This document shows, piece by piece, positions 3,159 to 14,888 of a stretch of DNA of 26,024 nucleotides (position 1 is the first letter of the stretch; every line of letters starts with the position of its first letter). The notes under the pieces were generated by a model that saw only the letters and a program-made list of their open reading frames with translations, was not told the origin of the DNA and did not search any database. The stretch is from a phage. The stretch lies in assembly GCA_012702815.1 (NCBI GenBank), contig GCA_012702815.1_3927.1; one strand, 5' to 3'. The position numbers and the translations under genes are program-made.

Positions 3159-3373
3159 CACTTGCAGACGTTATTCAGCAACTTCATGATAACTGCTACA
3201 CTCCAGAGTTAATTCAGGAGATGTCCATTATAGTCATGCCTAGCAAGTTCGTAAAAACCTTTAACAACGACGCTTTAAGGTCTACACACATCCTTATCGT
3301 TGACGGTAAGATTGCAAAAGACCGTACTGGAGTACTTAAAGGTGAACGTATTGATATTCTGGAGTTGCTATGA
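3155..3373 (+). CDS. hypothetical protein
   Basis: ORF 3140..3373; start preferred at ATG 3155, which forms an ATGA overlap with the upstream stop; GGAGA lies upstream. Confidence 0.5.
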   Translation: MTLADVIQQLHDNCYTPELIQEMSIIVMPSKFVKTFNNDALRSTHILIVDGKIAKDRTGVLKGERIDILELL

Positions 3374-3516
3374 AGAAAATGTACAGTCTCTGGGGAAGGG
3401 TTGGTAAAGGTTTTGACTGGACACTTCTTCGTTCAAACGTTAAACGTAGTGAATTACCAGAACTCATTACCCACTATTTAAAAACATACAGAGAGGTAGA
3501 CTATCGTGAACAATAA
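3370..3516 (+). CDS. hypothetical small protein (48 aa), absent from the supplied ORF track
   Basis: Uninterrupted frame ATG 3370 to TAA 3514-3516 (MKKMYSLWGRVGKGFDW...DYREQ). GGAG at 3361-3364; ATGA overlap with the upstream stop; fills an otherwise empty ~130 nt gap. Confidence 0.35.
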   Translation: MKKMYSLWGRVGKGFDWTLLRSNVKRSELPELITHYLKTYREVDYREQ

Positions 3517-3763
3517 GGTTAAGAGTTGTGTGAAAGCAATGGTTGCACTTGGAGTAATTTTTCTATCTGGCTGCAACCCCTCTTACGAGGACAAAAACGC
3601 TTCTTATAGCCTCCCACCAGAGATGCAAGATTGCAAAGTCTATAAGTTACATGGTGATGCCATAAGCAGAGATATTGTTGTTGTCAGATGTCCAAACTCT
3701 CAAACAACAACATCTTATAGTTATGGGAAAAATGGTCAATCACACACTACGGTTATTGAGTGA
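3506..3763 (+). CDS. putative lipoprotein (signal peptide with lipobox L-S-G-C)
   Basis: GTG start. N-terminus MNNKVKSCVKAMVALGVIFLSG-C has a basic n-region, hydrophobic core and lipobox LSGC with Cys at position 23. GAGAGG upstream. Confidence 0.6.
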   Translation: MNNKVKSCVKAMVALGVIFLSGCNPSYEDKNASYSLPPEMQDCKVYKLHGDAISRDIVVVRCPNSQTTTSYSYGKNGQSHTTVIE

Positions 3764-3773
3764 GGTTTTCACG

Positions 3774-3980
3774 ATGGAAGTCCTAGTAAACTATATCTAT
3801 TGTTATGATGTTGTTCACTCCACTACAACCGTAGCTCAACGTAACCCAATCGTCCCACGAGAAGGTGAGTTGGTTCGCATCGAGGGTTGGACTTACACTG
3901 TGGAAAGCATCATCCATAAGTTTGATGTTGCTGGTGATGTTCAGGTTATCGACGTAGAGATTGGTGGTAAGAGAAAATGA
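3774..3980 (+). CDS. hypothetical protein
   Basis: ORF 3675..3980 overlaps the lipoprotein gene; internal ATG 3774 preferred (GTGAGGT 8 nt upstream, no overlap). Stop overlaps the next ATG (ATGA). Confidence 0.5.
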   Translation: MEVLVNYIYCYDVVHSTTTVAQRNPIVPREGELVRIEGWTYTVESIIHKFDVAGDVQVIDVEIGGKRK

Positions 3981-4195
3981 CTGTAGAAGATAAATTTAAG
4001 AACGCAGTTCTTACAGAAGATGGTGAGCTTGAAACATTCATTCTTCGTGTTGATGGTAAGTTATTCCGGTGTCGTTGTGGGTCAAACTGTTTCCATAAAC
4101 CGGATAAAAATGACTTAGAGCTTTACGCATGTAATGCCTGCAATACTTGGTATCACTCAGAGGTGAAAAATGACAACACTGTACAAACAAAATAA
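3977..4195 (+). CDS. small zinc-ribbon-like protein (CxC...CxxC)
   Basis: Four cysteines arranged C-R-C ... C-N-A-C; translationally coupled to neighbours. Confidence 0.55.
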   Translation: MTVEDKFKNAVLTEDGELETFILRVDGKLFRCRCGSNCFHKPDKNDLELYACNACNTWYHSEVKNDNTVQTK

Positions 4196-5273
4196 AGACG
4201 GCTCTTTTAACGTCTGGTCATGCGTTGCTGTAGGTGACAAAGTTATTACAACCTACGGTAAAGAAAATGGCAAGATGATGTTTGAAGAGTATACAGCAGA
4301 ACCTAAAAACATCGGTAAAAAGAATGAGCGTAACGCTGAACAGCAAGCTCTCTTTGAAGTTGCTGCAAAGTATAAAAAGCAGGTTGACCGCAAAGGTTAT
4401 GCTTACACAAAAGAGTCTGCACAGAATACCGAGAAGGTAGGTGTACAGCTTGCTCATGATGCTGCAAAGGTTAGCCATGCAAAGTATCTGAAGTTCCCTG
4501 CTGATGCTCAACCGAAACTTGATGGTGTCCGTTGTAGGATTTCAAGGCACTTGAGTATTGGCAGTGTATTTACAGCATATTCTCGTGAGAATACTGTTTA
4601 CAAAATCCCTACTGAACTAATACCTGACATTATGGCAATGTTAAGGCTCCACAAAGATGTTGATGAATTTGATGGAGAGATTTATGCTCATGGGTGGGAC
4701 TTAGAAGATATCGTCTCCATGATTAAAAATGAAGACAATCCTGACAGACACCTACTCAAGTTTTACTGGTATGATATCTGTGACAGTACTAAGACGTGGC
4801 CTGAGCGTAGAGATATTATTGAGACTTCACCATTGAATGACTTCAGAGACGGCTGTAAAGTTGTCCCTGTTAAGTCTCGTCGTGTTAACTCTTGGGAAGA
4901 GTTTGATGAAGCTCATGATAAGTGGGTTGAAGCTAAGTTTGAAGGTGCAATGTACCGTTCAATCTCTGAAGACTCCTTCTATGAGTGTTGTCACCGTTCG
5001 TACTTCTTGATTAAGCACAAGAAGATGCACACTGAAGAGTTTAAAGTGACTGGTGTCAAGACTGATAAACGTGGTCATGGCAAGTTCGTTGTAGAGACTC
5101 TTCCTAATGTCTTTGTAGATGTCTCATGGAAGACTACTCATGAGAAGAAACAGTATCTTGCTGAGCATCCTGAAGAGTTTATCGGGAAACCTTTAACGGT
5201 ACAGTTCCAGAAGATGACTCGCAAGGGGTCTTTGCAGTTCCCTGTTGGACTAGTTATTCGAGACTACGAATAA
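4170..5273 (+). CDS. ATP-dependent DNA ligase
   Basis: Adenylation motif I KLDGVR (Lys about residue 116) and downstream FDGEIY motif. RBS AGAGGTG before ATG 4170. About 100 aa of extra N-terminal sequence relative to the minimal T7-type ligase. Confidence 0.85.
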   Translation: MTTLYKQNKDGSFNVWSCVAVGDKVITTYGKENGKMMFEEYTAEPKNIGKKNERNAEQQALFEVAAKYKKQVDRKGYAYTKESAQNTEKVGVQLAHDAAKVSHAKYLKFPADAQPKLDGVRCRISRHLSIGSVFTAYSRENTVYKIPTELIPDIMAMLRLHKDVDEFDGEIYAHGWDLEDIVSMIKNEDNPDRHLLKFYWYDICDSTKTWPERRDIIETSPLNDFRDGCKVVPVKSRRVNSWEEFDEAHDKWVEAKFEGAMYRSISEDSFYECCHRSYFLIKHKKMHTEEFKVTGVKTDKRGHGKFVVETLPNVFVDVSWKTTHEKKQYLAEHPEEFIGKPLTVQFQKMTRKGSLQFPVGLVIRDYE

Positions 5274-5280
5274 AAAGTTG

Positions 5281-5308
5281 TTGACATAGAAAATTTGGTG
5301 AGTATACT
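5281..5308 (+). promoter_or_regulatory. sigma70-like promoter candidate (TTGACA - 16 nt - TATACT)
   Basis: TTGACA at 5281-5286 and TATACT at 5303-5308, in the intergenic region after the ligase gene; a 9-bp inverted repeat (5296-5304 / 5329-5337) flanks the -10 and predicted start site. Confidence 0.5.
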
Positions 5309-5341
5309 GAGCAGCATAAACCAACGGGTACTCACCAGCAT

Positions 5342-5500
5342 CACTTAAGAGTCTTTCTAAGAGGGTTTTTAAGTAATGTGATGTTTGGTTTGGTGTGGTC
5401 AGGTAATGTGATGTCTGGTTTAGTGCGGTGATGTGCGGTCCGGTAAGGTCCGGTGCGGTAAAGTGCGGGTAGTTAGTCTCAGCTACATTAAAATGAGACT
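5342..5500 (+). repeat. composite repeat module A1 (type-1 header + 19 phased pentamers + hairpin)
   Basis: Header CACTTAAGAGTCTTTCTAAGAGGGTTTTTAAGT (5342-5374); NGTNN pentamers in unbroken 5-nt phase 5377-5471; hairpin AGTCTCA / TGAGACT with loop GCTACATTAAAA (5475-5500), followed by TACC TTTTT. Confidence 0.8.
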
Positions 5501-5504
5501 TACC

Positions 5505-5633
5505 TTTTTAAAAGGTCTTTAAGAGGGTCTTTTAATAAGGTGCTGTATGGTAAGGTGATGTCTGGTGTGGTAGGGTGAGGTTAAGTGAGGTGAGGTATGG
5601 GTGGATGGTAGTAGCCACGTTAAAAATCTACCA
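5505..5633 (+). repeat. composite repeat module A2 (type-2 header + 12 phased pentamers + hairpin)
   Basis: Header TTTTTAAAAGGTCTTTAAGAGGGTCTTTTAATAAGGT (5505-5541); phased pentamers 5539-5598; hairpin TGGTAG / CTACCA with 16-nt loop TAGCCACGTTAAAAAT (5606-5633). A degenerate third header copy follows at about 5642-5668. Confidence 0.8.
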
Positions 5634-5690
5634 AGTTTCTAAAGAGTCTTCTGTTGAGGGTTCTTTACAAACAACTTAACAATCAACTAA

Positions 5691-6296
<606 letters not shown>

Positions 6297-6298
6297 TT

Positions 6299-6739
6299 AT
6301 GAATACAAAAGCATTAGCAGCAAAGTTTAGTTACGGTGACACTGTATCACACTCTGAGATGGACACCTTCTTAGGTATTGTGAAGCCAACTTATCAAGGT
6401 GACATTGTTAAGTACGAAGATGAAATGAAGGCTTATGCGCTTACACGTCTAAACCGACTTGAAAAGTTTATTGAAAAACTTCTTAAAGAAGAGAAGATTT
6501 ATCTGGTTGCTTCAATGGGTGTTGGTTATCGTGTGGTTGAACCTAAGCATCAAGCAACTATTGCAAAACGCAAAATGTCTGGTAAGATTGGTCGTGCTTT
6601 AAAGCAAGCCACTCAAGCGATTGAGAATGTGAACACTATGGCACTTAGTCATCAAGAACGTTCACGACTGATTGAACAGCAAAATCACTTAGCTGCTATG
6701 AAAGCTAATATTAACAAGCAACGCAGAAAACCTTTCTAA
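6299..6739 (+). CDS. hypothetical protein (second gene of repeat-bracketed cassette)
   Basis: Starts 2 nt after the upstream stop; followed by an intrinsic terminator at 6751-6773. Lys/Arg-rich C-terminus. Confidence 0.6.
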   Translation: MNTKALAAKFSYGDTVSHSEMDTFLGIVKPTYQGDIVKYEDEMKAYALTRLNRLEKFIEKLLKEEKIYLVASMGVGYRVVEPKHQATIAKRKMSGKIGRALKQATQAIENVNTMALSHQERSRLIEQQNHLAAMKANINKQRRKPF

Positions 6740-6750
6740 GTTGACTAGGT

Positions 6751-6773
6751 AGCCTCTTCGGAGGCTCCTTTTT
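6751..6773 (+). terminator. intrinsic terminator after the two-gene cassette
   Basis: Stem AGCCTC / GAGGCT with TTCG tetraloop (6751-6766), then CC and TTTTT (6769-6773). Confidence 0.6.
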
Positions 6774-6902
6774 AAAAGGTCTTTAAAGAGGGTCTTTTAA
6801 TAAGGTAAGGCACGGTTATGTCAGGTATGGTACGGTACGGTTAGGTAAGGTGAGGCGGAGTAAGGTATGGGTAGTTAATCGGAGCTACATTAAAATTCGA
6901 TT
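6769..6902 (+). repeat. composite repeat module B1 (type-2 header + phased pentamers + hairpin)
   Basis: Header matches A2 apart from a single 1-nt indel (6769-6806); pentamers 6804-6868; hairpin AATCGGA / TTCGATT with the same loop as A1, GCTACATTAAAA (6877-6902). Confidence 0.8.
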
Positions 6903-7040
6903 ACATCACTTAAGAGTCTTTTAAGAGGGTTTTTAAGTGAGGTGTGGCACGGTAATGTTAGGTAGGGTCAGGTCAGGTCAGGTGAGGTAAGGTAAGGTGA
7001 TGTATGGAAGGATGGCAGTAGCCTTATAAAAAATCTGCCA
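6903..7040 (+). repeat. composite repeat module B2 (type-1 header + phased pentamers + hairpin)
   Basis: Header matches A1 apart from a single 1-nt indel (6906-6938); pentamers about 6936-7005 including GGTCA x3; hairpin TGGCAG / CTGCCA with loop TAGCCTTATAAAAAAT (7013-7040). Confidence 0.8.
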
Positions 7041-7058
7041 AATAAGCTATAAAATCTG

Positions 7059-7093
7059 TTGACAAGTCAGGTGTTATAGCTTATTTTTATACT
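7059..7093 (+). promoter_or_regulatory. candidate promoter (TTGACAAG box - 23 nt - TATACT) inside a 9-bp inverted repeat
   Basis: TTGACAAG at 7059-7066, TATACT at 7088-7093; inverted repeat AAGCTATAA (7044-7052) / TTATAGCTT (7074-7082) brackets the TTGACA box. Confidence 0.35.
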
Positions 7094-7131
7094 CAATGTA
7101 ATACAAAATTTAATATAACTTTGAGGTCATT

Positions 7132-7515
7132 ATGAAAAAGATTTTATTAGCTGCTGCAATGGTTATGGCAATGAATTTACCAGTCAATGCAACAGAACTT
7201 CCAAATGTGGACTTATCAGGTGTTCCAGAAGACACTTGTCAGATTGTTAAAGGTGTTGCTTTGACTAATGGTGAGTTACTTAAACCAATCTCTGAAGAGT
7301 CTTTAACAGAGATGACTGATAAGGTAACTGACTATCAGTATCGTGTTCTTGCAGAGTATTTCCTGCAATCTGCAAATATTAAAGAGAAGCACCATGATGA
7401 TATTGATGTACAGGCCATGATTAACCATCGTATTCAGTTTAAAGAAGATTTGATGCAAAAAGCTATGTATGGTGTTGAGTATTTCTTAGAAAACAGAAGC
7501 TGCACAGGTATTTAA
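7132..7515 (+). CDS. putative secreted/periplasmic protein with Sec signal peptide
   Basis: N-terminus MKKILLAAAMVMAMNLPVNA-TE: basic n-region, hydrophobic core, AXA-like cleavage site VNA. RBS GAGGT upstream. Confidence 0.6.
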   Translation: MKKILLAAAMVMAMNLPVNATELPNVDLSGVPEDTCQIVKGVALTNGELLKPISEESLTEMTDKVTDYQYRVLAEYFLQSANIKEKHHDDIDVQAMINHRIQFKEDLMQKAMYGVEYFLENRSCTGI

Positions 7516-7516
7516 T

Positions 7517-7729
7517 ATGGCTCTTAAAAAGTTACATCCCAGAAGCGGTTATGGTAAGATAATTGATGATACAGACGGTTTTACAGTCTTTACAGTTATC
7601 TGTCAAGATGATTCACAGATTGAGAAGGCTCTTGATGATTATCTTAACGATGAACGTGAAAAGGTTAGGGCTACAAACATAGATTCATTGATTGACACTT
7701 CACGAAAACGGAAGAAGAAAGATGAATGA
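7517..7729 (+). CDS. hypothetical small protein
   Basis: ORF starting 1 nt after the upstream stop; charged Lys-rich C-terminus. Confidence 0.45.
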   Translation: MALKKLHPRSGYGKIIDDTDGFTVFTVICQDDSQIEKALDDYLNDEREKVRATNIDSLIDTSRKRKKKDE

Positions 7730-8021
7730 GGTTTTTGACCCTTATGCTCCACAAGATGATTGGGAGGCTGACAGAGAGGCTGAAATGGAGAGTTATATTT
7801 GTCCAATGGATGTAGACGAAATGAGAGATTTCGTTGCACATCGTTTTAAGAGAGAGATTAAATCCAGAGGTCTTTCTCAAGAGCAAGTTGCTAAAATTTG
7901 TGGTATCTCTCAGGCTCGTGTATCCAACATAATCAATCTCACTGGTAATGTCTCGCTTGAGTTTATGTTGGGAGTATGCGAAAAATTTGGTGTTAATTTT
8001 AACTTAAGGTTGGCAGATTAA
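7722..8021 (+). CDS. XRE/Cro-type helix-turn-helix transcriptional regulator
   Basis: HTH signature LSQEQVAKICGISQARVSNI. ORF 7692..8021; start preferred at ATG 7722 (MNEVFD), which overlaps the upstream stop. Confidence 0.7.
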   Translation: MNEVFDPYAPQDDWEADREAEMESYICPMDVDEMRDFVAHRFKREIKSRGLSQEQVAKICGISQARVSNIINLTGNVSLEFMLGVCEKFGVNFNLRLAD

Positions 8022-8022
8022 T

Positions 8023-8382
8023 ATGAAACGTGAAAACATTATCCACTCTGAAAACTTCGCATTAGGTTTTTATGGTGTACCGACTCACCTTGAAAAGTAT
8101 TATGGTGTGAAGATTCTTTCCAATCTCATTATGGCTTACAAAGATGGTAAGATTAAGCATACTGAGAAGAAACGTGTCATGGGTTATATGGCTGTAGGTT
8201 CAGCAATCTCTAACATTAAGCTGGAAACAACTAGCAGCCAGATTGTGAAAGACCACTTCATCAAAGAGCTTTACCACAACCTTGATGGTGTAGATGTTCA
8301 GGCTGTTTGGCTGGATGTTGACGGTCACAATTACACAAGTTTCGTCTTCAAAAACGACGACATTAAGTGTCTGTTTCCATAA
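8023..8382 (+). CDS. hypothetical protein
   Basis: ORF immediately following the regulator gene (TAATATG junction); no recognisable motif. Confidence 0.5.
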   Translation: MKRENIIHSENFALGFYGVPTHLEKYYGVKILSNLIMAYKDGKIKHTEKKRVMGYMAVGSAISNIKLETTSSQIVKDHFIKELYHNLDGVDVQAVWLDVDGHNYTSFVFKNDDIKCLFP

Positions 8383-8395
8383 TAGGTGATTAGTT

Positions 8396-8911
8396 ATGAT
8401 TGATATCTACTTACAAGATGCTCATGCAGACTTCCTTAAAGTGATGCTTAAAAAGTTTATGGCTTCACAGGGTGAGAATGAAGCATCTTTTAAAATAGTT
8501 ACATGTGGCGACGAAGCTGGTTTTGTTGAGATTGAACATGAAGGTACTGGAAAGACTGTTTGTAAGTTACCTGATAGTATGTTCTCTAGCACATTCTTAA
8601 CAAAGACTAGCATAAATGTTAAGCTTGTACCTCAGATTGAAACATACTCTGGTACAGATTACCCTAAAGGTTTTAAGTCACTGATGAAGTATTTCTTAGA
8701 TGACTTTGTGAGTAATCTTCTGCGAGAGGTAAAAGAAAGTCGTACAGTGTTGACTGTAGAGAACATCGGAGGAACTATCAGGGTTACTTCTGACTGCTTT
8801 GTGATGAGCCTCTTCGACTTCGTTCCTAAGAACTTTGATGGTATTCTGGATGAAGAAGATGACTGTGTAGACTTTATATTGGTTCTTGAACCAGTTTTTG
8901 AGGTTAAATAA
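8396..8911 (+). CDS. hypothetical protein
   Basis: ORF with RBS AGGTGA upstream; acidic C-terminal region. Confidence 0.55.
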   Translation: MIDIYLQDAHADFLKVMLKKFMASQGENEASFKIVTCGDEAGFVEIEHEGTGKTVCKLPDSMFSSTFLTKTSINVKLVPQIETYSGTDYPKGFKSLMKYFLDDFVSNLLREVKESRTVLTVENIGGTIRVTSDCFVMSLFDFVPKNFDGILDEEDDCVDFILVLEPVFEVK

Positions 8912-9172
8912 ATGAAAATTGAACACTGCTATGAGCCTGACGGAACACCTATCCGATGTCCACATTGTGGGTGTACAGACTTACAAGGTGAAGTTCATGT
9001 GATTGTTAATGGCCATATAGCTGAAGAAAGTACTACATGTGTTGGTTGTGGTGAGCATCTATCATTCTGGGCCTATGGTTCATACCAACCTACACCACAC
9101 TTAATCTACCACAGCAATAAAGCTGTGAAGAATGTTATCAACTGGTTCATTAAGAAAGGGTTTACAAAATGA
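8912..9172 (+). CDS. small zinc-ribbon protein (CPHCGC ... CVGCGE)
   Basis: Two CxxC pairs; tightly coupled to flanking genes (ATGA overlap with the DHFR start). Confidence 0.55.
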   Translation: MKIEHCYEPDGTPIRCPHCGCTDLQGEVHVIVNGHIAEESTTCVGCGEHLSFWAYGSYQPTPHLIYHSNKAVKNVINWFIKKGFTK

Positions 9173-9714
9173 TTAAGCTAATATTTGCAAGTGGTGAAAA
9201 CGGTGAATTTGGTACACCGACTGGTATGCCGTGGCCTCGACATAAACAGGACATGCAAGAGTTTAAGAGACTCACTAAAAATAACTTAGTAGTCATGGGC
9301 AATGAGACTTTTAAGACTCTGGGTAGTAAACCTTTACCAGAACGTGCAAACCTCATCTTAACAAATTCTGTACCATACTTAGGCATAGACTTTGGCAAAG
9401 ATGATGTAATGTATGCTAAAGCCAGTAAAGAGTCATTTGGAGCATTTTTGAAGTATCTTGATAGCTCTATTGATGAAGATGTCTTTGTAATTGGTGGTGC
9501 AGGTATCCTTGTCAATGCTTTACCGTATGCTAGTGTGGTGTTCCATACTGTTTTCCATAAAGTTACTGAAGAGGCCACTGTGCATTTACCTTTTGAAAAC
9601 TTCTTTGAGAAGCTGTATGATAACCGTGTGTTTACAAAGGTACAGTCAAAACCATCAGAGGATGGTAAAGCAACTTTTGAAATTTATGTTCCACAAGTAA
9701 AAGGACACTTTTGA
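9169..9714 (+). CDS. frd: dihydrofolate reductase
   Basis: N-terminal signature MIKLIFASGENGEFG..MPW followed by VVMGNETFKTLG and PERANLILT, matching the DHFR fold; sits next to thymidylate synthase. Confidence 0.8.
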   Translation: MIKLIFASGENGEFGTPTGMPWPRHKQDMQEFKRLTKNNLVVMGNETFKTLGSKPLPERANLILTNSVPYLGIDFGKDDVMYAKASKESFGAFLKYLDSSIDEDVFVIGGAGILVNALPYASVVFHTVFHKVTEEATVHLPFENFFEKLYDNRVFTKVQSKPSEDGKATFEIYVPQVKGHF

Positions 9715-9715
9715 T

Positions 9716-10615
9716 ATGTCACAAGCAGATACAAGTTACAAAAATATCCTGAACCATGTTTTATCCGTTGGTGAACTACGTACTACACGAACTGGAGATG
9801 TTATCTCTGCTTTTGCTCCACCTCAGTTTCGTTTTGATATGCGAACTGGTTTCCCGCTCTTAACATCTAAACAGGTGTTTACACGGCAAGTTATTGGGGA
9901 AGCTTTATGGTTCCTGAATGGTGAGAATAAACTGGGTGAACTCCGTTACCGCACTTGGGATGAAAATGATGGAGAACGCTGGACTATCTGGTCAGATGAT
10001 TTTAAACGCTGGTTAAGCTCTAATTATTCTTCTGAACAAGACTGGTTAGATGACGCAGGTGGGAGAATCTACGGGGTTCAGTGGAGAAACTTTGAAGGTC
10101 ATAATGGTTGTGTTGTAGACCAGTTAGAGACCTTAGTAACGAAGATGAAGGGTGATATTACAGACCGCTACATGCTTGTTAATGCTTGGAATGCAGCAGA
10201 TATCGCAGCAAACTCAATGGCTTTAGCACCTTGTCATGTTCTGTTTCAGATTTATATCACTAACGAAGGTGAAGTTGACTTACAGTGGTATCAACGTTCA
10301 GTAGACACCTTTTTAGGACTTCCGTTTAATATTGCGTCTTATGGTTTCATCTTAGAAGTTCTTTGTAAGATGACTGGATACACTCCACGGTACTTGATAG
10401 GTGTCTTTGGGGATACCCAGATTTATCAGAACCATATGAAGCAGGTTTATGAGCTTATGAACAATGAAGAGTTTCATGCACCAACTTTTGAGATTGGCAT
10501 ACCACTTAATACTTTAAGTGACTTGAAGCATCTTACTGCAAGTGATTTTATTGGTGGTATTTACAACTACCAACATGCAGGGAAGATTGAAGCGCCTCTG
10601 TCAGTAGGTAAGTAA
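9716..10615 (+). CDS. thyA: thymidylate synthase (ThyA family)
   Basis: Catalytic-site signature ALAPCH, then QRSVDTFLGLPFNIASY and FGDTQIYQNH. Carries an insertion relative to bacterial ThyA (about DENDGERW...DDAGG). Confidence 0.85.
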   Translation: MSQADTSYKNILNHVLSVGELRTTRTGDVISAFAPPQFRFDMRTGFPLLTSKQVFTRQVIGEALWFLNGENKLGELRYRTWDENDGERWTIWSDDFKRWLSSNYSSEQDWLDDAGGRIYGVQWRNFEGHNGCVVDQLETLVTKMKGDITDRYMLVNAWNAADIAANSMALAPCHVLFQIYITNEGEVDLQWYQRSVDTFLGLPFNIASYGFILEVLCKMTGYTPRYLIGVFGDTQIYQNHMKQVYELMNNEEFHAPTFEIGIPLNTLSDLKHLTASDFIGGIYNYQHAGKIEAPLSVGK

Positions 10616-10625
10616 AAACAAAAAA

Positions 10626-10661
10626 GGCTCCTTTTTACGGGAGCCTTAAAATTTTATTTTT
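10626..10661. terminator. bidirectional intrinsic terminator at the convergence of + and - strand gene blocks
   Basis: Stem GGCTCC (10626-10631) / GGAGCC (10640-10645), flanked by an A-run on the left and a T-rich run on the right. Confidence 0.6.
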
Positions 10662-11025
10662 CAGTATTCTTTGTGTTCTTTTCAGTAATAGCTTGCAAGG
10701 CTGATACTGATTGGGCCAGATTGTTCACACTGTCAGAGAATTTATCAAGAGTTTTGGTAAGTTTCGCATTCTCACCCTTAACATTCTCTAACTGGACTTT
10801 CTGGTTCTCCATCCCTATCTGAATCAGTCTCATGTCAGACTGTAAATCACGAATAGCTGAATAGTTACTTTTGGAATAATTATCTAGCTGCTGTAACTTT
10901 GTTGTGACAGACACTTCTTGCTTACCACTTGAAACTTGCATAGTGGTATACATCCCAATAACACTAAAAATACCAACTACAATTGCACCAATATTATTTT
11001 TAAAAGCTTCCTCTAGCCACTTCAT
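10654..11025 (-). CDS. membrane protein with N-terminal transmembrane helix and coiled-coil (spanin-like or holin-associated)
   Basis: Hydrophobic segment NIGAIVVGIFSVIGMYTTM followed by a heptad-rich, Q/L/K-rich domain. RBS GGGGGAGA; start abuts the stop of the upstream gene. Confidence 0.5.
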   Translation of the reverse strand: MKWLEEAFKNNIGAIVVGIFSVIGMYTTMQVSSGKQEVSVTTKLQQLDNYSKSNYSAIRDLQSDMRLIQIGMENQKVQLENVKGENAKLTKTLDKFSDSVNNLAQSVSALQAITEKNTKNTEK

Positions 11026-11220
11026 TTATTTCTCCCCCTTAAAAGCTTTTTCTAAGTTATCTACGAACTCATCATCAATAGGTGTGTCTGTTTTACTCGC
11101 AAGGTATCTTGCAAGCTTAAAGAACACTTTCTCAATCATGTATTCACTCAGAAGGGATAAAATGAGTTTCCAGAAGAAGCTACCTAGATTTTTTAGAAGA
11201 ATTGCTAGGATTGTAGGCAT
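11026..11220 (-). CDS. small membrane protein (holin-like candidate)
   Basis: 64 aa with one hydrophobic helix (TILAILLKNLGSFFWKLILSLL) and a charged C-terminus. Strong RBS GAGGTGA; candidate promoter just upstream at 11264-11292. Confidence 0.5.
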   Translation of the reverse strand: MPTILAILLKNLGSFFWKLILSLLSEYMIEKVFFKLARYLASKTDTPIDDEFVDNLEKAFKGEK

Positions 11221-11263
11221 TTAATCACCTCATCAGCCAAGATGGTGAGAATACCCATAAAGA

Positions 11264-11292
11264 ATATTAACACCATCTTAACAATCAGTCAA
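11264..11292 (-). promoter_or_regulatory. sigma70-like promoter candidate on - strand (TTGACT - 17 nt - TAATAT)
   Basis: Reverse complement of 11287-11292 is TTGACT and of 11264-11269 is TAATAT; 9-bp inverted repeat AAGATGGTG/CACCATCTT (11239-11247 / 11271-11279) overlaps it. Confidence 0.45.
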
Positions 11293-11299
11293 CAAGGGA

Positions 11300-13666
11300 T
11301 TAAGCAGTTCTTACCCAAGCCATTAACTTATAGAACTGGTTAGTAACACTAAATGCTGAACCAGAACCAGTACCACCTGTGTTACCGCTAACTGTGTGGC
11401 TGTGAGCACCAATACCAACAGTGTGGCTGTGGTTACCTGTTGTATTCGTTACACCAGACCAGTTTCTTGATGCGTTGAAGTTGACAGGGATACCATTAGT
11501 AAAGTTGTTACCAGTATACCCTTTAGAACCTGCCTGACTACCGAGGTAGAATGCACCACTTGCTGTGTAGAAGCTACTAGCGTCACTTCTGAAGTAACCA
11601 AATGAACCAGTAATCTCCATAGTACCTCTGTTGTGGTTGTGGTTACCAGTTGTGCTAGAAGTCTTAGTACCATAGTCAAATGATGAAGTAGTAGCAGAGA
11701 AGCTGTGCGTGTGTGAAGGTAAGTTACCAACAGACAACGTTACAGAGTCTGAACCACCAGTTGTAGCAACATCTGAACCGTTTGCTGCTGCAATTCTAAT
11801 AGTTCTACCAACACCATTATTCAGGTACGTCCAAGTTAACCCAGGAAGTGCTGTGTTTGGGTTGACATTACTGTTAAACCACGTCACAATACCTACTGGA
11901 TAGATTTTATTCAGGTCTGTAGAGTCACTAATCGCCTCTGCAATCTTCTGGTCAGTCTCTGCTTTAGTGTATGCACCAATTTCTGAAGGTGTTGGTTTCT
12001 GAGCTTCAGTGTAAACCTTAGACCATTCAGCCTCAAAACCATACCTATCTCTGGCTGTTCTATACCATAAACCACCATTCCTGTAATCAAATCTTAATTG
12101 TGCGGTTGGTGTTGATGCTAACATATTAGCGAACAGGTGTAAGACTAAACGGCTTGAACCACCACCATTGATAGTCTCTGCATAAATGCCTGAAGGTTGG
12201 TTCCAAGCAACACCACCATCAGACTCATTCACCAAAGCTCTGGCTGATGACCATAAGTACTTCGCATCGGTTGCCGATTTAACGTAGTATCTAGCATCTA
12301 AGTTAGAGAAATCTGAAGGTTGAACTTGTCCAGCAATAGTCAATGTTTTGTTAATGTATGATGTTGTATTCCCGAGAACCAATTGGGTTCCAGAATAACT
12401 GTTATTTAGGGTAACATCATTCGTGTCAGCACCACCAACACCTACCCACCACCTTGACACATTAGCAGTGTCCACACCACGGATATACAATGGTCTGTTC
12501 TGAGTAGAGTTTTTCACAATTAGGGCTTCATTATCCGTAACAACTTTCTGTACACCATTAAAAGTATTTTGTGCATTAGTTCTTGCAATTGTACTTAATG
12601 TTGCTGCCGGAATATATCTAGAGTCAATGTTAGCCCAATCTGAAGGTTGAACTTGACCAGTGATTTGCACAGTTTTATTGATACCAATAGTAGTACCTAG
12701 TGAAACCTGTGAACCTGTAAGGTAGTTATAAATGTTTAGACGTGTCTCGTCAGAATCTGTACCAACATACCATTTATTTGTTCCATCAGACTTCTTACCG
12801 AGAATGTAAAGTGCTGTATTTGCATCAGTATTCTGCAAAGTAATGGCATTAGCATTCTTCTTAGCAACAAGGTTAGTGAAAGTGTTAGCACCTGTAAAAG
12901 TATTATTGCCAGCTAACTGTGCAAATCTCTGATTAGCTGCCGTCTGAGTAAAGTATCTAGCATCTAAGTTAGAGAAATCAGAGGGTTGAACTTGACCAGT
13001 GATTGCTAAAGACTTATTAACAGAGACATTACTTGCAACAGTCAAGGCTGAGTTGTATTTGTTATTGTACAGCTTTACTTCGTCAGAGCCATTACTACCA
13101 ATACCAACCCACCATCTAGCCGAACCATCTAGGTTTACACCTTCGATATATTGTGCATTATTTGCATTTTGGTTTCTAAGGCGAAGTAAGTTAGCATCAC
13201 CTTGAATATTTTGAGTTCCAGAGAATGTGTTTGTGATAGCAAGTCTTGCGTATCTTGCATCATTCTCTTCATTAGTCCTCATACCAAGCTCATTAGGACT
13301 TGGCTTATTCAGAGTATGATAAACAGTTGCTGACCTTGAAGCATCTGCAATAGTTAGTTTAAGACCATTTGCGTTAATTTTAAAAGTCTTTAAAATATCC
13401 CCAATAGTAATCTCAGAAGAGCCTGTAGGGTCAAATACAGACTTTCCACCGTAAAGTAACTTGACAATACCTAAATCCCCAGTCATAGTGCTTCCAGCAA
13501 TCTGAACAAACCTTTCTAGTTTGAAGGAAGCTAAGAAGTCTTGATAGGTCATTCTACGGTCTTCATCACCCAACATTTCAGGTCTTTTCTTAACTCTGAT
13601 GTGCAATAGGTCTTCTGAACGAATTGTGTCGATTGAGTTTAATTGACTCAATTTGTAATCTGCCAT
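11300..13666 (-). CDS. tail fibre protein (long), three internal ~110 aa repeats and C-terminal HxH-rich tip
   Basis: 788 aa. Three repeats each containing ITGQVQPSD(F/W)(S/A)N(L/I)D(A/S)RY; collar-like segment IYPVGIVTWF; four HxH motifs (SHTHS, NHNHN, NHSHT, AHSHT); C-terminus shared with the adjacent fibre. Confidence 0.85.
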   Translation of the reverse strand: MADYKLSQLNSIDTIRSEDLLHIRVKKRPEMLGDEDRRMTYQDFLASFKLERFVQIAGSTMTGDLGIVKLLYGGKSVFDPTGSSEITIGDILKTFKINANGLKLTIADASRSATVYHTLNKPSPNELGMRTNEENDARYARLAITNTFSGTQNIQGDANLLRLRNQNANNAQYIEGVNLDGSARWWVGIGSNGSDEVKLYNNKYNSALTVASNVSVNKSLAITGQVQPSDFSNLDARYFTQTAANQRFAQLAGNNTFTGANTFTNLVAKKNANAITLQNTDANTALYILGKKSDGTNKWYVGTDSDETRLNIYNYLTGSQVSLGTTIGINKTVQITGQVQPSDWANIDSRYIPAATLSTIARTNAQNTFNGVQKVVTDNEALIVKNSTQNRPLYIRGVDTANVSRWWVGVGGADTNDVTLNNSYSGTQLVLGNTTSYINKTLTIAGQVQPSDFSNLDARYYVKSATDAKYLWSSARALVNESDGGVAWNQPSGIYAETINGGGSSRLVLHLFANMLASTPTAQLRFDYRNGGLWYRTARDRYGFEAEWSKVYTEAQKPTPSEIGAYTKAETDQKIAEAISDSTDLNKIYPVGIVTWFNSNVNPNTALPGLTWTYLNNGVGRTIRIAAANGSDVATTGGSDSVTLSVGNLPSHTHSFSATTSSFDYGTKTSSTTGNHNHNRGTMEITGSFGYFRSDASSFYTASGAFYLGSQAGSKGYTGNNFTNGIPVNFNASRNWSGVTNTTGNHSHTVGIGAHSHTVSGNTGGTGSGSAFSVTNQFYKLMAWVRTA
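12259..13219 (-). repeat. three tandem ~330 bp intragenic repeats within the long tail fibre gene
   Basis: Near-identical ~48 nt cores at about 12291-12340 and 12953-13005 and a related core at about 12641-12667, encoding repeated QVQPSDFSNLDARY segments. Confidence 0.7.
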
Positions 13667-13681
13667 TATAAGTTTTCCTCT

Positions 13682-13701
13682 TAAAAGGGGCTATAAAGCC
13701 C
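13682..13701 (-). terminator. hairpin plus T-run between the two tail fibre genes (possible attenuator)
   Basis: GGGGCT (13686-13691) / AGCCCC (13696-13701) with a 4-nt loop; on the - strand it is followed by TTTT, then the RBS and ATG of the distal fibre gene. Confidence 0.4.
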
Positions 13702-13712
13702 CTGTAAAGAAA

Positions 13713-14888
13713 TTAAGCTGTTCTCTGCCACACATACACTACAAAAGATGGCTGCTCAACACTGAATGCTTGACCACCACCAACAGAACCAGTTGTCCCT
13801 GAGTGTGTATGCTCAGAGCTAGAAACAGTAACAGTGCCTGTATGACTGTGCGAACCAATATTAACAGTGTGGCTGTGAGCACCAATTGCGACAGTATGAC
13901 TATGAGCACCAGATGATGCAGTTGTACCTGAGAAGCTATGGGTGTGAGCACCAGCTAAATCAGTATACATAGCATTACCAACACCAGCATCAGCAGATGC
14001 AGTAATAGCATTTGTGCCACCCCTATCATTACCCCTCATAGGAACTCTATGGTTGTGGTTACCAGCATTACTTGTTGTGCCACTAAACGTGTGAGTGTGA
14101 GCACCAGCACTATTAGTCGTTTTTGTACCGTAATCAAAAGTTGATGTGCTTTTTGAACCATAATCAAAACTAGAGATAGATACACTTGCAGAGTGTGTAT
14201 GACCACCACCTGTTAGGTAGATAGAGTGAGTATGTGCTGGTAAATTATTATTTGTTAATGCTACAGTCTGAGAACCAAACATTGAACCAACAGGTCTAGA
14301 ATCTGTATCATAACCAACTAGTGCCCTACCTTTAGAAACTAACTCCCAAGTGCCACCACAAAGCAAGTAAGTGGATGGGTTAGCAGAGTTAACAGACAGA
14401 TGAATAGTCCCCACTGGATATGATGCTTGGATAGCTTTGTATAAGTTATTCACTGCTCTCGCTGTAGCATACTTATCAGCATCTTCATTGTACAGATTAG
14501 ATGTTGTCCAGTTCTGAACATTACTTAAACCAACCTGTGCTTTCGTTGTATTGTGTGGGTTACTTTTGTCGTCAATATGTTGCTGAATTAAGTTATTCAC
14601 TTCCTCTGACGACATAATTTGTAGATTTGCTCTTGCCTCAGCAACATTCACAATGTCTGACAAGTTATTAGCTGCAACTAATTGAAGAGAGTTAATAACA
14701 TTATCAAGACCCACTTGTGATTTAGTTACACCATGAGGATTATTCCTCAGAGATGCGTGAGGTGCTAACAACTGCTCAAGCGTACATCTTTTATCCTCAA
14801 CACCTTGCTTAAGGTGGAAGATATCACTCAAATCAATTGGTAAGGCCGCTTGTGGCAAGGCACTAATTTGAATTTCACCTACTGCCAT
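13713..14888 (-). CDS. tail fibre protein with collar-like domain and nine HxH motifs
   Basis: 391 aa. Repeats NPHGVTKSQVGLDNV and NPHNTTKAQVGLSNV; collar-like YPVGTIHLSV...LLCGGTWEL; nine HxH motifs; C-terminus AFSVEQPSFVVYVWQRTA. Confidence 0.85.
   Translation of the reverse strand: MAVGEIQISALPQAALPIDLSDIFHLKQGVEDKRCTLEQLLAPHASLRNNPHGVTKSQVGLDNVINSLQLVAANNLSDIVNVAEARANLQIMSSEEVNNLIQQHIDDKSNPHNTTKAQVGLSNVQNWTTSNLYNEDADKYATARAVNNLYKAIQASYPVGTIHLSVNSANPSTYLLCGGTWELVSKGRALVGYDTDSRPVGSMFGSQTVALTNNNLPAHTHSIYLTGGGHTHSASVSISSFDYGSKSTSTFDYGTKTTNSAGAHTHTFSGTTSNAGNHNHRVPMRGNDRGGTNAITASADAGVGNAMYTDLAGAHTHSFSGTTASSGAHSHTVAIGAHSHTVNIGSHSHTGTVTVSSSEHTHSGTTGSVGGGQAFSVEQPSFVVYVWQRTA

What the first reader, a model, noticed from the sequence alone, without database searches (positions are those of the whole stretch)
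5342..5670. Intergenic island A: two composite header-array-hairpin modules in a ~420 nt non-coding stretch
The 420 nt between the ligase gene and the next gene has no ORF. It holds two modules, each with a highly conserved ~33 nt header, a strictly 5-nt-phased G/T-rich array and a hairpin, plus a degenerate third header just before the gene start. I do not recognise this architecture from any described phage element; it is not a CRISPR array, tRNA, terminator cluster or simple tandem repeat. It lies downstream of a good sigma70-like promoter (5281-5308), so it is probably transcribed as a long leader or as separate small RNAs.
Basis: seen in the sequence. Interest (0 to 1): 0.85.

Follow-up and report, generated by a model that had tools for sequence, protein, structure and literature searches.

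The report
VIPR guide-RNA genes of a phage
The odd non-coding island encodes two guide RNAs of a VIPR system, a phage-borne relative of CRISPR first described in 2026 preprints, and here the guides are aimed at a parasitic satellite element found in E. coli genomes.

Summary
Window 5343-5672 holds two header / 5-nt-phased G-T array / structured-tail modules plus a third header. Two more modules lie at 6767-7040. The window is a Felixounavirus.

The element is not undescribed. The next gene (5709-6296) encodes a minimal Cas7-like RAMP protein that is 97.9% identical to Vipr of phage SUSP1, the experimental model of the VIPR system (bioRxiv 10.64898/2026.04.26.720920 and .720927). The arrays are vrRNA genes: tandem YNNGG pentamers with a fixed GGY scaffold and hypervariable NN, capped by a 3' pseudoknot.

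I reproduced the defining features here:
- the pentamer logo;
- NN hypervariability next to nearly invariant flanks;
- covariation in the pseudoknot;
- conservation of every published GGY-contact residue;
- the published "NN, skip 1" targeting rule.

All four window guides match a roughly 10-12 kb satellite element integrated in E. coli chromosomes. In the finding, vr1 matches its tape-measure gene and vr2 an unknown gene annotated as a transposase. None matches a near-identical relative's genome.

Verdict: already known in kind, a further instance of a characterised clade. What remains open is the conserved header, which I find to be a stem-loop and could not find discussed in the preprint text available to me, and how vrRNAs are made.

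The parts
5281..5308 (+). Sigma-70-like promoter TTGACA-16-TATACT, upstream of the first vrRNA gene.
   Evidence: Consensus scan gives 11 of 12 matches. Identical in 17 of 19 related loci, one change in one more, and always about 35 nt upstream of the first header. Activity not tested.
5343..5374 (+). Header a, an A/U-rich stem-loop: ACUUAAGAG / UUUUUAAGU around a 14-nt apical part.
   Evidence: Covariation over 25 distinct headers: 92% of cells paired, 5 of 9 pairs with changes on both sides, 0 of 500 shuffles reach the covariation score. RNAfold gives -10.1 kcal/mol, z = -2.9. Its role is unknown.
5369..5468 (+). vrRNA-1 repeat tract of 20 pentamers. Strict YNNGG units begin at 5384. Contains an internal 30-nt duplication at 5373-5429.
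   Evidence: Units 11-19 (9 consecutive NN pairs) match the satellite tape-measure gene under the 1-nt-skip rule, at L029 8613-8671.
5469..5509 (+). vrRNA-1 3' tail (type x1). H-type pseudoknot with S1 GUAG/CUAC and S2 AGUCUCA/UGAGACU. The alternative extended hairpin followed by U5 looks like an intrinsic terminator.
   Evidence: Pseudoknot pair counts. Minimum-free-energy fold is hairpin plus U-run, -12.1 kcal/mol. ASO1B annotates a terminator at this position.
5503..5540 (+). Header b stem-loop: UUAAAAGG / UCUUUUAA core, extended by UCUU / AGGG.
   Evidence: -10.8 kcal/mol, z = -2.1.
5536..5600 (+). vrRNA-2 repeat tract of 13 YNNGG pentamers.
   Evidence: Units 2-11 (20 of 20 bases) match a satellite CDS annotated 'transposase', at L029 10352-10389, in frame with the skipped base at the wobble position.
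5601..5633 (+). vrRNA-2 3' tail (type y1). Pseudoknot with S1 GUGG/CCAC and S2 GGUAG/CUACC.
   Evidence: The same tail type follows the satellite-borne vrRNAs.
5634..5672 (+). Header c, a stem-loop with no array after it, just upstream of the vipr ribosome-binding site.
   Evidence: -12.3 kcal/mol, z = -2.8.
5709..6296 (+). vipr gene: a 195-aa minimal RAMP (Cas7-like) protein that polymerises on the repeats.
6299..6739 (+). vap1-like accessory gene, 146 aa.
   Evidence: 99.3% identical to the SUSP1 gene at the same position. No Pfam family. AlphaFold2 model has pLDDT 76, is helical, and has no significant PDB match.
6751..6774 (+). Intrinsic-terminator-like hairpin plus T-run after vap.
6767..6805 (+). 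Header b, second copy.
6801..6870 (+). vrRNA-3 repeat tract of 14 pentamers.
   Evidence: Matches 25 of 28 NN bases in a non-coding stretch of the satellite, L029 14588-14628.
6871..6903 (+). vrRNA-3 tail (type x2). S2 AAUCGGA/UUCGAUU compensates relative to x1.
6908..6938 (+). Header a, second copy.
6933..7007 (+). vrRNA-4 repeat tract of 15 pentamers.
   Evidence: Matches 24 of 30 NN bases (9 consecutive units perfect) in a hypothetical satellite CDS, L029 11646-11689. The same guide occurs, with small changes, in several relatives.
7008..7040 (+). vrRNA-4 tail (type y2). S1 AAGG/CCUU and S2 GGCAG/CUGCC.

Best explanation
The island is the upstream guide-RNA array of a type II VIPR (Viral Interference Programmable Repeat) system in a Felixounavirus. 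It is orthologous to the system characterised in phage SUSP1.

What the island encodes (shown here and in the preprints):
- Transcription probably starts at the conserved promoter 5281-5308. This is inferred.
- It yields two vrRNAs. Each is a tract of YNNGG pentamers followed by an invariant 3' pseudoknot tail.

How the RNAs work (shown for SUSP1 in the preprints, inferred here from 98% protein identity and conserved contact residues):
- One Vipr protomer, product of 5709-6296, binds each pentamer and locks away the GGY bases.
- The two variable NN bases of each unit are presented for pairing.
- Double-stranded DNA that reads NN-x-NN-x..., with one base skipped per unit, is bound as a gapped R-loop triplex, and transcription there is silenced.

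What the guides target (shown here by computation):
- vr1 matches the tape-measure gene and vr2 an unknown gene of a roughly 10-12 kb satellite element integrated in E. coli chromosomes.
- That satellite carries Felixounavirus-like tail genes.
- The island is therefore most likely a programmable weapon of the phage against its own parasite.

The header stem-loops before each tract and before vipr most likely mark processing or boundary sites in a polycistronic precursor. This last step is inference only.
For: Protein next door:
- It carries a RAMP G-loop motif.
- It is 97.9% identical to SUSP1 Vipr, and the accessory protein is 99.3% identical.
- Residues H17, K33, R39, E71, M72, K82, G87, K88, R138, C173, D177, W178 and R179, named in the cryo-EM preprint, are invariant in 19 of 19 loci.

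RNA genes:
- 80 modules (64 distinct arrays) from 19 phages give the logo Y(T 90%)-N-N-G(76%)-G(98%), with 0.08 and 0.15 bits at the NN positions.
- At the same slot in different phages, NN identity is 0.34 and scaffold identity 0.83. The adjacent 108 nt are 99% identical and vipr is 96% identical.
- Tail pseudoknot: S1 is 100% paired with 3 of 4 pairs compensatory. S2 is 84% paired with 6 of 8 compensatory. No shuffle in 500 reaches the observed values.

Targets:
- 32 of 63 guides have runs of at least 7 units, against 2 of 315 shuffled guides. 37 of 38 runs of at least 6 units fall inside the satellite.
- Skips of 0, 2 or 3 give no run of 7 or more.
- No guide matches the ASO1B genome above the shuffled level.
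- The satellite's baseplate protein is 75% identical and its tape-measure protein 30% identical to the phage's.

Distant relatives:
- Loci L023 and L028, whose Vipr homologues are 37-40% identical, also carry NNGGT arrays next to the gene.

Literature.
Against: - No RNA or binding data exist for this phage. Expression, RNA ends and activity are carried over from SUSP1.
- The two supporting papers are preprints from one laboratory.
- vr1 has 20 pentamers, more than the published 9-16, and its 5' half matches nothing I searched. Part of it may be a non-functional duplication.
- Matches to the two satellite variants I fetched are 80-89% of NN bases, not 100%. The first unit or units and the last unit usually do not match.
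- The vr1 tail plus U5 looks like a terminator. If it is efficient, vr2 and vipr would need read-through or a promoter I did not find.
- The pseudoknot and header structures were derived from the same sequences on which they were counted, and they rest on few independent paralogue types.
Confidence: 0.93

Rival explanations
1. The island is a transcription-attenuation leader. An oligomeric RNA-binding protein (by analogy with TRAP, which reads triplets spaced about 5 nt apart) wraps the G/U array and decides whether the downstream hairpin plus U-run terminates transcription into the two-gene cassette.
For: The order is promoter, phased array, then a hairpin with U5 ahead of the genes. The 5-nt period resembles TRAP sites (my own knowledge). 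The x1 hairpin and pseudoknot stem S1 are mutually exclusive folds.
Against: - The NN positions are hypervariable between phages with near-identical flanks. A fixed protein-binding leader has no use for that.
- The guides match satellite DNA under a specific skip rule.
- The same modules sit downstream of the cassette as well.
- SUSP1 has no x1 tail upstream.
- Satellites carry a stand-alone module with its own promoter and terminator.
- A regulatory side effect of Vipr binding on read-through is not excluded.
Confidence: 0.03
2. The island is a DNA-level element. It could be a replication origin using a G-rich R-loop, a set of iterons, or a partition or regulator binding site, as one GenBank record suggests ('possible binding site of StbAB').
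For: The non-template strand shows strong G-over-C skew downstream of a promoter, inside a replication-gene neighbourhood of polymerase, ligase and primase. KhF3 carries the StbAB annotation.
Against: - The arrays are strictly on one strand.
- Compensatory changes in two stems of the tail, and GNRA-tetraloop hairpins in the distant relative L023, argue for RNA structure.
- Iterons are conserved sequences, whereas here the informative positions are hypervariable.
- The StbAB note covers 11 nt and cites no evidence.
- No StbA/StbB-like protein was found among the neighbours I scanned.
Confidence: 0.02
3. The vrRNA genes are real, but in this phage they are decayed or serve another purpose, for example as decoys or against host defence, and the satellite matches are relics.
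For: vr1 carries a duplication and a 5' half without a match. Matches are imperfect. Only two satellite variants were examined.
Against: - All four guides have long perfect runs in the satellite.
- Half of 63 guides from 19 phages converge on it.
- Vipr, Vap, the tails and the promoter are under strong conservation.
Confidence: 0.02

Closest known systems
VIPR system of Escherichia phage SUSP1 (type II VIPR; bioRxiv 10.64898/2026.04.26.720920 and 10.64898/2026.04.26.720927)
   Same: - Vipr is 97.9% and Vap 99.3% identical.
- The gene order matches: vrRNA(s), vipr, vap, vrRNAs.
- The YNNGG repeats are the same kind.
- The same pseudoknot tail types occur (SUSP1 itself is locus L020 in my set).
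- The promoter is the same.
- The same 1-nt-skip rule applies, and the guides hit the same kind of target, an E. coli satellite with Felixounavirus-like tail genes.
   Different: - The guide (NN) sequences differ.
- There are two vrRNAs upstream and two downstream, against one and three in SUSP1.
- vr1 is over-long (20 pentamers) and carries an internal duplication.
- An x1 tail with a U-run lies upstream of vipr.
- I also describe a conserved header stem-loop that I could not find discussed in the preprint text available to me.
Class 1 CRISPR-Cas effector backbone (Cas7 / Csm3 / Cmr4 on crRNA)
   Same: - The protein has a RAMP fold with a G-loop and a thumb.
- It polymerises along a guide RNA at a fixed period, with flipped bases.
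- The variable guide is capped by a conserved structured handle.
- Guides vary between otherwise identical genomes.
   Different: - The period is 5 nt with three bases sequestered and two read, not 6 nt with five read.
- The guide is non-contiguous.
- There are no direct repeat-spacer units, no cas1/cas2 and no other cas genes.
- The system is encoded by a lytic phage.
- The reported outcome is silencing, not cleavage.
TRAP-trp leader attenuation (Bacillus)
   Same: A short RNA motif recurs about every 5 nt upstream of a terminator-like hairpin and is read by a protein oligomer.
   Different: - The motif is GGY, not (G/U)AG.
- The protein is a RAMP filament, not an 11-mer ring.
- The variable bases carry target information.
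- This was a lead recalled from my own knowledge and is not supported as membership.
Type III toxin-antitoxin RNA arrays (ToxI/ToxN)
   Same: Tandem non-coding RNA modules sit beside the gene for the protein that binds them, separated by a terminator.
   Different: - The modules are about 100-160 nt with an inner 5-nt repeat, not 36-nt repeats.
- The protein has a RAMP fold, not a ToxN endoribonuclease fold.

Membership tests
VIPR system (type II, SUSP1 clade) | Vipr protein: a small (~20 kDa) single-RRM RAMP with a glycine-rich loop and a thumb. | tested here: met
VIPR system (type II, SUSP1 clade) | More than 90% protein identity to SUSP1 Vipr (the preprint's definition of the clade), with the GGY- and DNA-contact residues retained. 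| tested here: met
   97.9% identity, four substitutions (N18A, P119Q, V189I, I190M). H17, K33, R39, E71, M72, K82, G87, K88, R138, C173, D177, W178 and R179 are conserved in 19 of 19 loci (residue list).
VIPR system (type II, SUSP1 clade) | A two-gene locus with a vap accessory gene, and no CRISPR array or cas genes. | tested here: met
   vap at 6299-6739 is 99.3% identical to the SUSP1 gene. Neighbours are ligase, small unknown genes, an HTH regulator, DHFR and thymidylate synthase.
VIPR system (type II, SUSP1 clade) | vrRNA genes: tandem YNNGG repeats (9-16) with conserved GGY and hypervariable NN, in the intergenic regions flanking vipr. | tested here: met
   Tracts of 13, 14, 15 and 20 units. 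Logo information is 1.5 / 0.08 / 0.15 / 0.96 / 1.81 bits. NN identity between phages is 0.34, scaffold 0.83, flanks 0.99. vr1 exceeds the published range.
VIPR system (type II, SUSP1 clade) | An invariant 3' tail folding into a pseudoknot. | tested here: met
   H-type pseudoknot counted on 22 distinct tails: 89% of cells paired, 9 of 12 pairs with changes on both sides, 0 of 500 shuffles reach the observed values, and slid controls give 26-44% paired. Caveat: the structure was derived from these same sequences.
VIPR system (type II, SUSP1 clade) | Guides specify DNA targets by NN-x-NN (1-nt skip), typically in competing mobile elements, with no self-targeting. | tested here: met
   Window guides give 9-10 consecutive perfect units in the satellite. 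Runs of at least 7 units occur in 32 of 63 guides at skip 1, and in none at skips 0, 2 or 3; shuffled guides give 2 of 315. The best match in the ASO1B genome is at the shuffled-control level.
VIPR system (type II, SUSP1 clade) | vrRNAs accumulate as RNAs of about 100 nt, co-purify with Vipr, and silence targets. | not testable with these tools
   Shown for SUSP1 by small-RNA sequencing, pull-down, GFP repression and phage assays (preprint). Here it is only inferred by orthology.
CRISPR-Cas | An array of near-identical direct repeats (about 23-50 nt) separated by contiguous unique spacers, with adaptation genes (cas1/cas2) and effector cas genes. | tested here: not met
   The repeat unit is 5 nt. 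The modules have no repeat-spacer organisation. No cas genes appear in the window neighbourhood or in the ASO1B genome annotation.
Rfam-curated RNA families | A match to any covariance model at or near its gathering score. | tested here: not met
   Only chance-level snoRNA/sRNA hits appear (E = 0.8-3.7, far below gathering scores). The distant loci give none.
TRAP-type attenuator | (G/U)AG triplets at about 5-nt spacing overlapping an antiterminator, together with a TRAP (MtrB) protein. | tested here: not met
   The conserved triplet is GGY. The adjacent protein has a RAMP fold. No antiterminator was looked for beyond the hairpin/pseudoknot alternative.

The most novel reading that the evidence does not exclude
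The conserved header stem-loop is the still-undescribed biogenesis signal of vrRNA arrays. It sits before every repeat tract and once more before vipr, and it is found nowhere else in the phage genome. It could be a cleavage or boundary site, read by a host RNase or by Vap, that cuts a polycistronic precursor into vrRNAs and the vipr mRNA. In addition, the x1 tail may toggle between a terminator hairpin and the Vipr-capped pseudoknot, so that Vipr occupancy would control read-through into vr2 and vipr. The satellite's orphan vrRNA lacks the header and has its own promoter and terminator. That fits the header being an array-processing device rather than part of the guide.
Probability: 0.3. Interest if true: 0.55.

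Novelty: already known. Interest (0 to 1): 0.45.

Why it matters
VIPR is a newly reported way to recognise DNA with RNA. The guide is a scaffold of 5-nt repeats in which only two bases per unit carry information, and it is read by a protein proposed to predate the CRISPR RAMPs.

This window gives an independent, purely computational confirmation in another phage:
- The same anatomy is present.
- The same skip rule emerges from unrelated guides.
- The guides converge on a satellite that parasitises this phage group.

For annotation, the "empty" intergenic islands flanking this two-gene cassette in the more than one hundred Felixounavirus-type phage records that carry it should be labelled as vrRNA genes. 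The neighbouring "hypothetical proteins" should be labelled Vipr and Vap.

The header stem-loop and the terminator/pseudoknot alternative are concrete handles on the open question of how vrRNAs are made.

Tried and rejected
- **Rfam.** A permissive scan of the island gave only chance hits. Scans of the distant loci gave none.
- **Pfam and PHROGs.** The cassette proteins fall in no Pfam family and only in unknown-function PHROGs.
- **Early ideas dropped.** Before the protein fold was known I considered a TRAP-like attenuator, an R-loop origin or iterons, a two-quartet G-quadruplex, a ribosome standby or Shine-Dalgarno-like sponge, and a pentanucleotide microsatellite. I dropped all of them once three things were clear: the NN positions are hypervariable, the neighbouring protein is a RAMP, and the guides match satellite DNA.
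- **StbAB annotation.** The KhF3 note covers 11 nt and has no support.
- **Header as a general phage promoter.** Rejected, because the motif occurs only at this locus in the 89-kb ASO1B genome, and no sigma-70-like site was found in it.
- **Exact-pattern scan of IMG/VR.** An 11-unit vr4 pattern found nothing. The satellite copies I later found differ from the guide at 2 of the 22 specified bases, so an exact scan would have missed them.
- **Vap.** Sequence homologues are close relatives only. Similarity to the partner genes in L023 and L028 is marginal. The AlphaFold2 model has pLDDT 76 and no significant PDB match.
- **Targeted satellite proteins.** None falls in a Pfam family.
- **Literature.** Searches on Felixounavirus repeats and on Cas7-like phage proteins found nothing relevant. 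The search combining RAMP, Cas7 and tandem repeats found the preprint.

Full report
**1. What is in the sequence**

The window is a Felixounavirus. The region is 98% identical to Escherichia phage vB_EcoM_ASO1B and matches 259 phage records.

The ligase ORF ends at 5273 and the next gene starts at 5709. Nothing credible is coded between them. On the + strand only, GT recurs every 5 nt. It scores 10 of 10 consecutive phases at 5358-5482 and at 5525-5614, whereas the best of 50 shuffles reached 7.

| Element | Coordinates |
|---|---|
| header a | 5343-5374 |
| array 1 | 5369-5468 |
| hairpin/tail, then T5 | 5469-5504 |
| header b | 5503-5540 |
| array 2 | 5536-5600 |
| hairpin/tail | 5601-5633 |
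| header c (no array follows) | 5634-5672 |

A second island at 6767-7040 holds two more modules. The complete ASO1B genome contains only these four. The two islands bracket a two-gene cassette, 5709-6296 and 6299-6739, which has no Pfam family and falls in unknown-function PHROGs.

**2. The lead that identified it**

I fetched loci encoding relatives of the 195-aa protein. The 18 close relatives all carry the modules at the same two places, but the number per island varies from one to three.

Two distant relatives, with proteins 37-40% identical, also carry NNGGT arrays beside the gene:
- L028 has arrays filling three intergenic gaps.
- L023 has 11-12 tandem modules. Each is a G/T-phased stretch plus a 54-nt unit containing a GCAA-tetraloop hairpin whose stem shows compensatory changes.

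**3. It is a described system**

[quoted passage not shown] They define VIPR systems as follows:
- a minimal RAMP protein, Vipr;
- an accessory gene, vap;
- vrRNAs of about 100 nt made of 9-16 YNNGG repeats (GGY conserved, NN hypervariable), followed by an invariant 3' tail that forms a pseudoknot in the SUSP1 clade.

According to these preprints, one Vipr protomer binds each repeat. The NN bases pair with double-stranded DNA that reads NN-x-NN-x, forming a gapped R-loop triplex, and transcription is silenced. Guides of the SUSP1 clade mostly target a satellite phage in E. coli genomes. The model phage, SUSP1, belongs to the same subfamily (Ounavirinae) as this window.

**4. Membership tests run here**

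*Proteins.*
- The window protein is 97.9% identical to SUSP1 Vipr, and the accessory protein is 99.3% identical.
- Locus L020 is SUSP1 itself. It shows one array upstream and three downstream, as published.
- Every residue the structure paper names for GGY, target or non-target contacts is invariant in 19 of 19 loci.

*Repeats.*
- 80 modules (64 distinct arrays) give the logo Y(T 90%, C 10%)-N-N-G(76%)-G(98%), with only 0.08 and 0.15 bits at the NN positions.
- At the slot just upstream of vipr, different phages share 34% of NN bases and 83% of scaffold bases. The following 108 nt are 99% identical and vipr is 96% identical.
- This is spacer-like turnover inside a frozen frame.

*Tail.* The four tail types (x1, x2, y1, y2) fit one H-type pseudoknot.
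- S1 is GUAG/CUAC, GUGG/CCAC or AAGG/CCUU.
- S2 is AGUCUCA/UGAGACU, AAUCGGA/UUCGAUU, GGUAG/CUACC or GGCAG/CUGCC.
- On 22 distinct tails, S1 is 100% paired with 3 of 4 pairs compensatory, and S2 is 84% paired with 6 of 8 compensatory.
- No shuffle in 500 reaches these values, and slid controls give 26-44% paired.
- Caveat: I derived the structure from these sequences, and the independent events are few.

**5. Targets**

A BLAST search of the locus against complete E. coli genomes found a vrRNA-like stretch of about 84 nt in 150 of 5,426 genomes, always in unannotated DNA. Two examples were fetched:
- L029, strain EC12, inserted in a DUF72 gene;
- L030, strain 2013C-3492, between wrbA and ymdF.

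Both are roughly 10-12 kb elements carrying a serine recombinase, a baseplate protein, a tape-measure protein, small unknown genes and a 2-2.6 kb non-coding stretch. The baseplate protein is 75% and the tape-measure protein 30% identical to the phage's own.

I decoded the window guides with the published rule:

| Guide | Match | Location in the satellite (L029) |
|---|---|---|
| vr1 | units 11-19 perfect | tape-measure gene, 8613-8671 |
| vr2 | units 2-11 perfect (20 of 20 bases) | CDS annotated "transposase", 10352-10389 |
| vr3 | 25 of 28 bases | non-coding DNA, 14588-14628 |
| vr4 | 24 of 30 bases | hypothetical CDS, 11646-11689 |

In vr2 the skipped base falls at the codon wobble position.

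Across 63 guides from 19 phages:
- 32 have runs of at least 7 perfect units, against 2 of 315 shuffled guides.
- 37 of 38 runs of at least 6 units lie inside the satellite rather than in the flanking chromosome.
- With skips of 0, 2 or 3 bases, no guide reaches 7.
- No window guide matches the ASO1B genome above the shuffled level.

The satellite's own vrRNA has a sigma-70 promoter, a y1 tail and a terminator, but no header and no vipr nearby. It presumably relies on the helper phage's Vipr.

**6. How the island most likely works**

*Shown here:* the anatomy, the protein fold, the conservation pattern and the target matches.

*Shown for SUSP1 and inferred here:* accumulation of RNAs of about 100 nt, formation of the Vipr filament, and silencing.

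*Inferred only:* transcription from 5281-5308, a promoter that is identical in 17 of 19 loci, and maturation from a longer precursor.

The first one or two pentamers (UUAAG, UGAUG or UAAGG) and the last one (UAUGG) are semi-conserved and usually do not match the target. The structure paper counts 12 repeats in SUSP1 vrRNA1, which equals the strict YNNGG units in L020. The header and its trailing non-GG units are therefore probably outside the Vipr-bound guide.

vr1 is atypical. It has 20 pentamers and a 30-nt internal duplication, and only its 3' half has a match.

**7. What is not in the preprint text I could read**

The header is a stem-loop.
- On 25 distinct headers of three paralogue types, 92% of cells pair and 5 of 9 pairs show changes on both sides. 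No shuffle in 500 reaches the covariation score.
- RNAfold gives -10 to -12 kcal/mol, with z between -2.1 and -2.9.
- It precedes every tract, occurs once more before vipr, and is found nowhere else in the genome.
- Neither preprint's accessible text mentions a 5' element, processing or a leader.

The x1 tail's lowest-energy fold is an extended hairpin followed by U5. That looks like a terminator and is incompatible with pseudoknot stem S1. These two observations are leads on how vrRNAs are made and regulated, not results.

**8. Verdict**

The element belongs to a system that is now described, and to the very clade that was characterised experimentally.
- Novelty: already known. This is a further instance with its own guides.
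- Interest: moderate. The biology is remarkable, but a specialist who has read the 2026 preprints would not be surprised.
- Added value: an independent in-silico confirmation of the skip rule and of satellite targeting, a correction for annotation, and the header and terminator leads.

Noticed in passing
window 6767-7040: A second island carries two more vrRNA genes (vr3 with an x2 tail, vr4 with a y2 tail), downstream of vap and a terminator. It is followed by a sigma-70-like promoter at 7059-7087 for the next operon.
   Followed up: yes
window 5343-5374, 5503-5540, 5634-5672, 6767-6805, 6908-6938: The 'header' is a conserved A/U-rich stem-loop with compensatory changes between its three paralogue types. 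It is confined to the VIPR locus and absent from the satellite's vrRNA. I could not find it discussed in the accessible preprint text.
   Followed up: partly
window 5373-5429: A 30-nt internal duplication (1.9 copies, 88% match) lies inside vr1 and re-creates the header-proximal units UAAUG UGAUG mid-tract. It makes vr1 20 pentamers long. The 5' half has no target match in what I searched.
   Followed up: partly
window 5469-5509: The x1 tail can fold either as the pseudoknot or as an extended hairpin followed by U5, which looks like an intrinsic terminator. The two folds exclude each other.
   Followed up: partly
L029 4869-16938 and L030 about 3304-14100 (E. coli chromosomes): A satellite element of about 10-12 kb carries a serine recombinase, Felixounavirus-like baseplate and tape-measure genes, an orphan vrRNA with its own promoter and terminator, and no vipr. 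A vrRNA-like match is present in 150 of 5,426 complete E. coli genomes. RefSeq leaves its 2-2.6 kb vrRNA-bearing stretch unannotated and labels one targeted gene 'transposase', although that gene has no Pfam support.
   Followed up: partly
L023 3690-4880 (146-kb IMG/VR contig): A distant VIPR locus has 11-12 tandem vrRNA modules. Each ends in a 54-nt unit with a GCAA-tetraloop hairpin that shows compensatory stem changes. It has no Rfam match, including to hammerhead models.
   Followed up: partly
L028 2376-2455, 3053-3285, 3754-3820: In another distant locus NNGGT arrays fill the spacers between consecutive genes. The arrays end in a short UUUUUAAC-like tail just before each ribosome-binding site, a different array architecture.
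   Followed up: no
GenBank GU169904.1 ('Staphylococcus phage SA1', 147 kb), 91679-92263: This record holds a vipr gene 99.5% identical to the Felixounavirus one. It is probably a mixed or mis-assigned assembly.
   Followed up: no
L001 4165-4175 (KhF3, KT184315.1): An 11-nt piece of the region corresponding to the header is annotated 'direct repeat sequence4 possible binding site of StbAB'. I found nothing to support this.
   Followed up: partly
window 7722-8021: A small Cro/C1-type HTH regulator (Pfam HTH_3, E = 2e-10) lies three genes downstream of island B. Any link to the VIPR locus is unknown.
   Followed up: no
window 11360-14120 and 12286-13020: Several families of 40-70 nt direct repeats lie inside what are probably tail-fibre coding regions on the minus strand. 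They are unrelated to the finding.
   Followed up: no
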